Shown here one piece after another: positions 9,078 to 9,539 of a DNA stretch of 64,000 nt. Source of the DNA: Sphyrna mokarran (Eukaryota). How positions within the stretch are numbered: the first letter of the stretch is position 1; each line of letters opens with the position of its first letter. A program made the translations under genes and the position numbers. Below the pieces are notes generated by a model. That model searched no databases, was not told the DNA's origin, and was given only the letters and a program-made list of their open reading frames with translations. The stretch lies in NCBI GenBank assembly GCA_024679065.1, contig JAGIQG010000008.1, forward strand, positions 14,136,001 through 14,200,000. The letters are read 5' to 3'.

Positions 9078-9183
9078 CTATTTATAAAATCAAATCAAAG
9101 CATCAGTGTATTACGACACCTTTATAGCCAAAGCAAAGAAACAAGCTGCCACTTCACAATCCTTTGCAGTTACATACCTGCAA

Positions 9184-9390
9184 AAAGTCTCATAACACCA
9201 GGTTGAAGTCCAACAGGATTATTTGATACCACGAGTTTTCAGAGTGCTGTTCCTTTATCAGGTGATCACCTGATGAAGGAGCAGCGGGCCAAAAGCTCGT
9301 GATACCAAATAAACCTGTTGGACTTCAACCTGGTGTTGAGAGACTTCTTACTGTACTCAACCCAGTCCAATGCCAGCATTTCCACATCAT
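9184..9390. mobile_element. PLE-derived palindromic non-autonomous element with two decayed hammerhead cores
   Basis: 81-bp inverted arms 9185-9265/9266-9346 with no loop, about 44-nt one-sided tail, 16-bp TSD 9168-9183/9391-9406 (14/16 identical). Confidence 0.85.
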
Positions 9391-9400
9391 AGGTACATAC

Positions 9401-9539
9401 CTGTAAGTGAGTAATGAAGGAGAATCTCTGCCGTGGAAAATGTTCACAGGCTTCCCACATACATGCCCCAGGATACACATCTTTCCCTCCATGCTCAGTT
9501 GCTGCATGGTAGTATACTTGAGATGGAGAATCAAACCAT
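9401..9539 (-). CDS. ARID2: ARID2 exon (17 equivalent), C2H2 zinc-finger region, 139 nt
   Basis: [48 protein letters not shown] 9540-9541, GTATGT donor at 9400. Confidence 0.97.

What the first reader, a model, noticed from the sequence alone, without database searches (positions are those of the whole stretch)
9168..9406. Transposon TSD duplicated an ARID2 splice donor, creating an AG|GT recursive-splice-like site
The 16-bp TSD spans the exon 17/intron junction. The pre-mRNA has the real donor TTACAG|GTATGT (9401/9400) and, 223 nt later, a copy CTTTTTGCAG|GTATGT (9178/9177). The element end and an A>G change make the copy look like a 3' acceptor directly followed by a regenerated donor. The element could be spliced out exactly and the remaining 100-nt intron removed next (zero-length exon), resembling the TE-driven intron-gain model. 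Use of the copy only as a donor would read into a stop at 9266-9268, truncating the second zinc finger (NMD isoform). The 81-bp hairpin also brings the two sites close together.
Basis: partly seen in the sequence, partly recalled or inferred. Interest (0 to 1): 0.75.

Follow-up and report, generated by a model that had tools for sequence, protein, structure and literature searches.

The report
Retroelement copied a shark splice donor
A small retroelement remnant landed just inside an intron of a shark ARID2 gene and copied the splice signal next to it; the copy most likely sits unused in folded RNA, so this looks like an ordinary tolerated insertion, though two-step splicing is not ruled out.

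Summary
The sequence facts hold. A 14/16 direct repeat (9391-9406, 9168-9183) copies the ARID2 donor CAG|GTATGT 223 nt downstream, inside a 323-nt intron of a shark. The insert is not a DNA transposon. It is a head-to-head pair of truncated terminal repeats of a Neptune-type Penelope-like retroelement, with a one-sided 41-nt tail and two hammerhead cores, each with a core substitution. Spliced contigs from this species and a relative join 9401>9077, but recursion would give the same junction, so this does not decide. Against recursion: the would-be branch zone and pyrimidine tract are predicted fully paired in the element's hairpin; an AG lies 11 nt upstream (21-47 in 14 real ARID2 acceptors); the A>G change is at the free -4 position and appears only in this species; a relative carrying the element has lost the copy donor's +3 A. 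The AG|GT follows automatically from copying a YAG|GT donor. Best reading (0.78): a silent decoy, with the intron removed in one step. Minor alternative-donor leak to NMD or occasional re-splicing is untested without raw or nascent RNA. The known model is transposon intron gain at AGGT; this is a failed or latent case.

The parts
9401..9539 (-). ARID2 coding exon upstream of the intron (exon 17 by recalled human numbering); ends ...FITHLQ
   Evidence: spliced contigs
9391..9406 (-). Upstream copy of the target-site duplication, holding the true donor CAG|GTATGT (9401/9400)
   Evidence: joint 9401>9077 in X2 and X16
9350..9390 (+). One-sided 41-nt 'tail' of the Penelope-like terminal repeat; on the ARID2 strand it holds a weak donor-like ACA|GTAAGA at 9352/9351
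   Evidence: same tail on one side only of the copies near 25680 and 37300; loose ends at 9350-9354 and 9390
9266..9349 (+). Long arm of the inverted terminal-repeat pair (5' arm of the hairpin in ARID2 pre-mRNA)
9266..9302 (+). Minimal hammerhead core, element sense, with G12 read as A at 9291; its antisense gives a second Y-rich CAG|GTGA motif at 9270/9269 on the ARID2 strand
   Evidence: family letters from loose ends
9182..9265 (-). Short arm of the inverted pair (3' arm of the hairpin); holds the would-be branch zone and pyrimidine tract
9229..9265 (-). Minimal hammerhead core in ARID2 pre-mRNA sense, with G8 read as A at 9256
9266..9268 (-). In-frame TGA reached if the true donor is passed over
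9168..9183 (-). Downstream copy of the duplication, CAG|GTATGT at 9178/9177 (the AG|GT site), inside a predicted local hairpin with 9160-9170
9078..9177 (-). Remaining 100 nt of the intron, ending at the real acceptor
8989..9077 (-). Next ARID2 coding exon, begins DKHC

Best explanation
A Neptune-type Penelope-like retroelement cut the ARID2 gene across an exon/intron junction. Both cut ends primed reverse transcription, from the element's two start sites, and both copies stopped early, leaving a head-to-head pair of terminal-repeat fragments with a tail on one side and a 12-16 bp duplication (anatomy shown; priming inferred from PMC11167929). The duplication copied CAG|GTATGT, so an AG|GT arises automatically. 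The original donor stays on the exon and the whole 323-nt intron is removed in one step (junction shown; single step inferred). The copy is a decoy. The element's own 84-bp hairpin buries the branch zone and pyrimidine tract and turns the stretch between the two donors into double-stranded RNA that cannot be defined as exon. In this species the A>G change also strengthens a small hairpin over the copy (folding computed; effect on splicing inferred). The copy drifts neutrally; low-level leak to NMD is possible.
For: Anatomy: three inverted copies in the window each have a flanking repeat (16 bp with 2 mismatches, 14 with 2, 12 with 0), a one-sided tail, the same short end and different inversion points. 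A sister copy at 1121-1551 reaches an ORF end 21/25 identical to the C-terminus of a shark RT protein, P0128 (RVT_1 E 5e-9; its relative P0125 hits GIY-YIG at E 2.5e-4, just under the cut-off). Splicing: in X2 (same organism label, 0 differences on both exons) and X16 (a relative) one contig each joins 9401>9077; 117 of 120 listed ARID2 homologues continue HLQ-DKHC and none has the read-through peptide. Acceptor quality: unpaired probability 0.00 for the branch zone and 0.01 for the tract, also in transcripts cut just past the site; AG-free zone 11 nt against 21-47 in 14 real ARID2 acceptors. Drift: the element is at the same site in DNA runs X3 and X15; both show the A at 9181 (inferred from distance-to-end values matching the orthologous contigs); X15 shows +3 A>T in the copy donor at 9175 (one contig, depth 7). 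Local hairpin -9.9 kcal/mol with G, -3.2 with A.
Against: The two donors pair equally with U1 (-9.7 and -9.9), and in human extracts and cells two strong donors more than 45 nt apart use the downstream one almost wholly (PMC3413131, passages). Silence of the copy therefore needs an active cause, here only predicted. The copy donor is predicted only slightly less open than the true one (0.41 against 0.52). The site meets the Y5+N0-4YAGGT search motif, and short introns do show occasional recursion (PMC10156609, passages). Its pyrimidine count (10 of 17) is within the range of real ARID2 acceptors (9-16). The mature junction cannot tell one step from two. No empty site was seen.
Confidence: 0.78

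Rival explanations
1. Two-step (recursive) removal as a real route: 9401 splices to the copy's AG, defined across a 189-nt exon by the next donor at 8989; the regenerated CAG|GTATGT then splices to 9077. This gives the normal mRNA.
For: Exact regeneration of the donor; motif meets Y5+N0-4YAGGT; the junction seen is what this route would also give; the residual 100 nt is a workable intron size; it would explain why a competing downstream donor is tolerated (PMC3413131).
Against: Branch zone and tract predicted paired; AG 11 nt upstream; copy donor changed at +3 in X15's species although the element is present; short introns favour conventional lariats (PMC10156609); the exon junction complex is reported to prevent re-splicing (PMC8184009, title and start of abstract only); a stalled first step would hit a stop after 7 codons.
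Confidence: 0.07
2. The copy works as an alternative donor (9178>9077) at a level that matters, making a 223-nt exon extension with a stop at 9268-9266 that feeds NMD and trims ARID2 output.
For: Equal U1 pairing; downstream-donor preference in model substrates; the stop is 88 nt before the junction, so the product would be hidden at steady state.
Against: Needs a 362-nt exon whose added part is mostly double-stranded; copy donor changed at +3 in X15's species; large losses at a conserved chromatin gene would be selected against (inference).
Confidence: 0.12
3. The insert is a miniature inverted-repeat DNA transposon, or the repeat is chance.
For: Long palindrome with flanking direct repeats.
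Against: Asymmetric tail, variable inversion point and 12-16 bp repeats across three copies; hammerhead core; link to an RT/GIY-YIG ORF end; chance rate 1 of 3000.
Confidence: 0.03

Closest known systems
Penelope-like elements, Neptune type, inverted pseudo-LTR insertions (PMC3846280, PMC8557442, PMC11167929, PMC4209133)
   Same: Head-to-head inverted terminal repeats, 5' truncation, 30-40 nt tail on one side, target-site duplication, minimal hammerhead in the repeat, two termini matching two reverse-transcription start sites.
   Different: This copy has no ORF; the duplication is 12-16 bp against 8-10 bp in the rotifer examples; both hammerhead cores carry a core substitution. None of the passages read concerns sharks.
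Intron gain by transposon insertion at AGGT, and Introners (PMC3443670, PMC11282704; maize Ds case cited there)
   Same: The duplication copies AG|GT to both sides of the element, giving a potential donor and acceptor.
   Different: The target was an existing donor, not coding sequence, so no splicing of the element alone is needed; the element is a retroelement; no use of the new acceptor is shown; no new intron position is created in the coding sequence.
Recursive splice sites / RS-exons (PMC8605326, PMC10156609)
   Same: Juxtaposed YAG|GT with a short pyrimidine run and a donor regenerated exactly.
   Different: 323-nt intron; tract and branch zone predicted paired; AG close upstream; not conserved in one of two relatives; no intermediate seen.
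Duplicated 5' splice sites and the downstream-site preference (PMC3413131)
   Same: Two donors of equal U1 pairing more than 45 nt apart.
   Different: The assembled mRNA uses the upstream donor, the reverse of the model substrates; the spacer is a long hairpin.

Membership tests
Penelope-like element (EN+, Neptune type) remnant | Inverted 5'-truncated terminal repeats with a 30-40 nt tail on one side | tested here: met
   84-nt arms, 41-nt tail; same build in two more copies
Penelope-like element (EN+, Neptune type) remnant | Minimal type I hammerhead in the terminal repeat | tested here: met
   Core CTGANGA...GAAA with a palindromic AGCT read by eye and by pattern, intact in family letters; substituted at G12 and G8 in this copy. 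Rfam gave no hammerhead hit.
Penelope-like element (EN+, Neptune type) remnant | Repeat linked to an RT plus C-terminal GIY-YIG ORF with a Cys linker | tested here: met
   Through the sister copy 1121-1551 (68% over 91 nt to this element): ORF end matches P0128/P0125/P0127, which carry RVT_1, a Cx4CxxC linker and a GIY-YIG hit just under cut-off. This copy has no ORF. Clade not tested by a tree.
Penelope-like element (EN+, Neptune type) remnant | Target-site duplication proven by an empty site | tested here: inconclusive
   Flanking repeats at 3 of 3 inverted copies; both relatives laid carry the element, no empty site
Recursive splice site | Y5+N0-4YAGGT motif | tested here: met
   9 such intronic motifs lie in the 51 kb of ARID2 scanned
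Recursive splice site | Accessible branch point and pyrimidine tract | tested here: not met
   Predicted unpaired probability 0.00-0.01; AG-free zone 11 nt. Prediction only.
Recursive splice site | Conservation of the acceptor-donor pair | tested here: not met
   +3 A>T in X15 (one contig); -4 differs between this species and X3/X15. Changes at 9176-9180 could be among 11 hidden rows or under the 5% share.
Recursive splice site | Splicing intermediate or recursive lariat observed | not testable with these tools
   Only assembled contigs were on offer
Introner / transposon-derived intron | Element inserted in exon and spliced out as a new intron | tested here: not met
   The insert lies 10 nt inside an intron whose position is flanked by the same residues in 117 of 120 homologues; the assembled junction removes all 323 nt
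MITE (DNA transposon) | Symmetric ends and fixed structure across copies | tested here: not met
   Asymmetric tail and different inversion points in three copies

The most novel reading that the evidence does not exclude
The element is spliced out exactly in a first step and the old 100-nt intron in a second, so a retroelement's target-site duplication has split a vertebrate intron into two with a zero-length exon: a living intermediate of transposon-driven intron gain that also rescues the gene from its own duplicated donor.
Probability: 0.07. Interest if true: 0.65.

Novelty: new member of a known kind. Interest (0 to 1): 0.22.

Why it matters
As read here it is an ordinary tolerated insertion, useful as a natural test case: two donors of equal strength where the upstream one appears to win, against the rule from model substrates, probably because the insert folds on itself. 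If two-step splicing were shown, it would give a dated origin for a recursive site and a vertebrate example of the AGGT-duplication route to new introns. The wider lead is that this very abundant shark repeat carries an acceptor-donor motif on its antisense strand in every copy seen.

Tried and rejected
No whole genome is held, so there is no genome-wide count of copies, duplications or target preference. No RNA holder was listed on record; X2 and X16 are RNA by guess, although each holds a contig with the GT-AG intron cut out exactly. I laid 4 of the 24 listed runs. No joint of 223 nt (9401>9177) or 100 nt (9178>9077) is among the 15 joints shown, 10 more are hidden, and X2 and X16 have no cover over 9100-9174. 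Contigs drop rare forms, so none of this shows absence. No 223-nt skip (empty site) is shown in DNA runs X3 or X15. Rfam at E up to 5 gave 2 weak microRNA matches far under cut-off, which reflect the hairpin only. The metagenome pattern scan gave one 21-nt match in unrelated GC-rich DNA, L001. Pfam found nothing on the two 35-36 aa ORF-end peptides; P0123 is a chance EF-hand protein. Earlier findings of this scan: none in 3 look-ups. Self-cleavage of ARID2 pre-mRNA was rejected: the sense core has G8 read as A, is paired in the hairpin, and single minimal motifs were inactive in PMC4209133. An RS-exon ending at AAG|GTGTCG (9120/9119) was rejected because it leaves 42 nt of intron. A-to-I editing of the hairpin could not be read from contigs. 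Rows dropped: one acceptor (27829) and two donors (21158, 8514) were mis-set by one base and are left out of its ranges; one search uses the corrected donors.

Full report
Observation. On the - strand, 9406-9391 and 9183-9168 are 14 of 16 identical and 223 nt apart; such a match occurred in 1 of 3000 random window pairs. The first copy holds the donor CAG|GTATGT at 9401/9400 and the second the same nine letters at 9178/9177. The gene is ARID2 of a shark: the best homologues are shark proteins, the large exon is 95% identical over 440 aa to Mustelus asterias, and tblastn maps 17 exon blocks on the - strand. The intron is 323 nt, 100 nt remain after the copy, and read-through stops at 9268-9266, 88 nt before the 9178 junction.

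What the element is. Between the repeats lie two 84-nt arms meeting at 9265/9266 (83% complementary; fold z -11.7) and 41 nt more on one side. Two more inverted copies in the window (about 37290-37530 and 25680-26265) share the tail on one side, the same short end, and flanking repeats of 14 bp (2 mismatches) and 12 bp (exact), but invert at different points. Each arm starts with a minimal hammerhead core; the family letters keep it intact, while this copy has A for G12 (9291) in one arm and A for G8 (9256) in the other. A fourth copy, 1121-1551, extends to an ORF end 21 of 25 identical to the C-terminus of a Heptranchias RT protein, with relatives showing a Cx4CxxC linker and a GIY-YIG hit just under cut-off. 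This is the build described for Penelope-like elements: inverted truncated repeats, a 30-40 nt tail and a duplication (PMC3846280 and PMC8557442, passages), minimal hammerheads (PMC4209133, parts 1-2 of 4), and cutting and extension of both strands from two start sites that bound the tail (PMC11167929, parts 1-2 of 4). The Cys linker points to the Neptune or Nematis type; no tree was built. About 12,000-15,000 contigs were laid on the stretch in each DNA run, with loose ends at 9350-9354 and 9390, so the family is very abundant and has two termini. The 2026 retrozyme preprint (passages) does not mention sharks.

Is the AG|GT special? No. Eleven of 16 ARID2 donors in the window read AG|GT and 6 of 16 YAG|GT, so a duplication across a donor often yields one. 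Thirteen Y5+N0-4YAGGT motifs lie in 51,236 nt of the gene: 1 real exon start, 3 in the large exon, 9 intronic, 4 of the 9 from this family. The A>G change is at -4, the unconstrained acceptor position (established knowledge). The family's short end supplies the pyrimidines whatever that letter is.

RNA and relatives. I laid 4 of 24 listed runs, all as assembled contigs. X2 (same organism label as the best DNA holder, no differences on both exons) and X16 (another organism) each have one contig joining 9401>9077. That shows the normal junction, but a two-step route ends in the same junction, and contigs cannot show rare forms. 117 of the 120 listed homologues (best 120 of 151) continue HLQ-DKHC; none has the read-through peptide. 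In DNA runs X3 and X15, contigs run from unique flank into the element on both sides (8900-9214 and 9362-9620; 8900-9208 and 9376-9620; only the first has 31 letters inside the element), so the insertion is shared and no empty site was seen. Both show the true donor's letter at 9181; I infer this from distance-to-end values (34, 28) that match those contigs. X15 also shows +3 A>T in the copy donor (9175, one contig, depth 7). Eleven rows of differences are hidden and letters under a 5% share are not listed, so 9176-9180 are not fully checked.

How it most likely works. The original donor stays on the exon and the intron goes in one step. As an acceptor the copy is poor: branch zone and tract are predicted paired (unpaired 0.00 and 0.01), also in transcripts ending just past it, and an AG lies 11 nt upstream against 21-47 nt for 14 real acceptors, though its pyrimidine count (10) is within their range of 9-16. 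As a donor it is as good as the true one on paper (-9.9 against -9.7), and model substrates strongly favour the downstream of two strong donors (PMC3413131, passages). This is the main difficulty for my reading. The likely answer is that the spacer is double-stranded and cannot be defined as exon, helped in this species by a local hairpin that the A>G change strengthens (-9.9 against -3.2 in isolation). In the longer fold, however, the copy donor is only slightly less open than the true donor (0.41 against 0.52), and with the relatives' letter it is 0.34, so the A>G change is not needed for masking. These steps are inferred from folding, not measured.

Rivals. Recursion (0.07): exon definition is possible across 9177-8989 with the next donor; intronic recursion is reported to need such a cryptic exon (PMC8605326, passages), and short introns show it occasionally but favour conventional lariats (PMC10156609, passages). 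Against it stand the buried tract, the changed donor in X15's species, and reported blocking of re-splicing by the exon junction complex (PMC8184009, listing only). A meaningful poison isoform from the copy donor (0.12) is hidden by NMD and untested. A DNA transposon or chance (0.03) is largely excluded.

Comparison and novelty. It is a member of the Penelope-like insertions on the features tested, except that no empty site was found. It works like the first half of the AGGT intron-gain model (PMC3443670 and PMC11282704, passages), but the target was an existing donor, so it is not an Introner. It resembles a recursive site in motif only. Searches (listings only, open-licence library) showed no paper on a duplication-made recursive site in a vertebrate; subscription papers and supplements were not seen. 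Verdict: real feature, ordinary class, most likely silent; interest 0.22.

Noticed in passing
window 9270/9269, 26180/26179, 37441/37440 (- strand): The antisense of this family's hammerhead core is itself a pyrimidine-rich CAG|GTGA motif; family letters give a consensus-type donor there. With 9178/9177, 4 of 9 intronic Y5+N0-4YAGGT motifs in ARID2 come from this family. With many thousands of copies, it may be a shark-wide source of cryptic splice sites that inverted partners mask.
   Followed up: partly
window 1121-1551: Copy of the same family that reaches the end of the RT/GIY-YIG ORF, with an inversion near 1450-1550.
   Followed up: yes
window 25669-26275 and 37285-37536: Two more inverted copies in ARID2 introns with 12 and 14 bp flanking repeats. 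In all three inverted copies the target after the short end starts with AG in at least one repeat copy; n = 3, possibly a target preference that makes acceptor-like ends.
   Followed up: partly
P0129, P0131: Annotated Heptranchias isoforms of XRCC5 and FAM204A end in the C-terminus of this element's ORF, which suggests exon capture from the family or annotation error.
   Followed up: no
window 9182-9349: The 84-bp hairpin is a likely A-to-I editing substrate in ARID2 pre-mRNA (inference); not readable from contigs.
   Followed up: no
window 54938-57309 and 63408-64000: Broken reverse-transcriptase reading frames that look like CR1-type LINE remnants (family name recalled, not searched).
   Followed up: no
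window 32050-32266: Short tandem array, about 27-nt unit, in an ARID2 intron.
   Followed up: no
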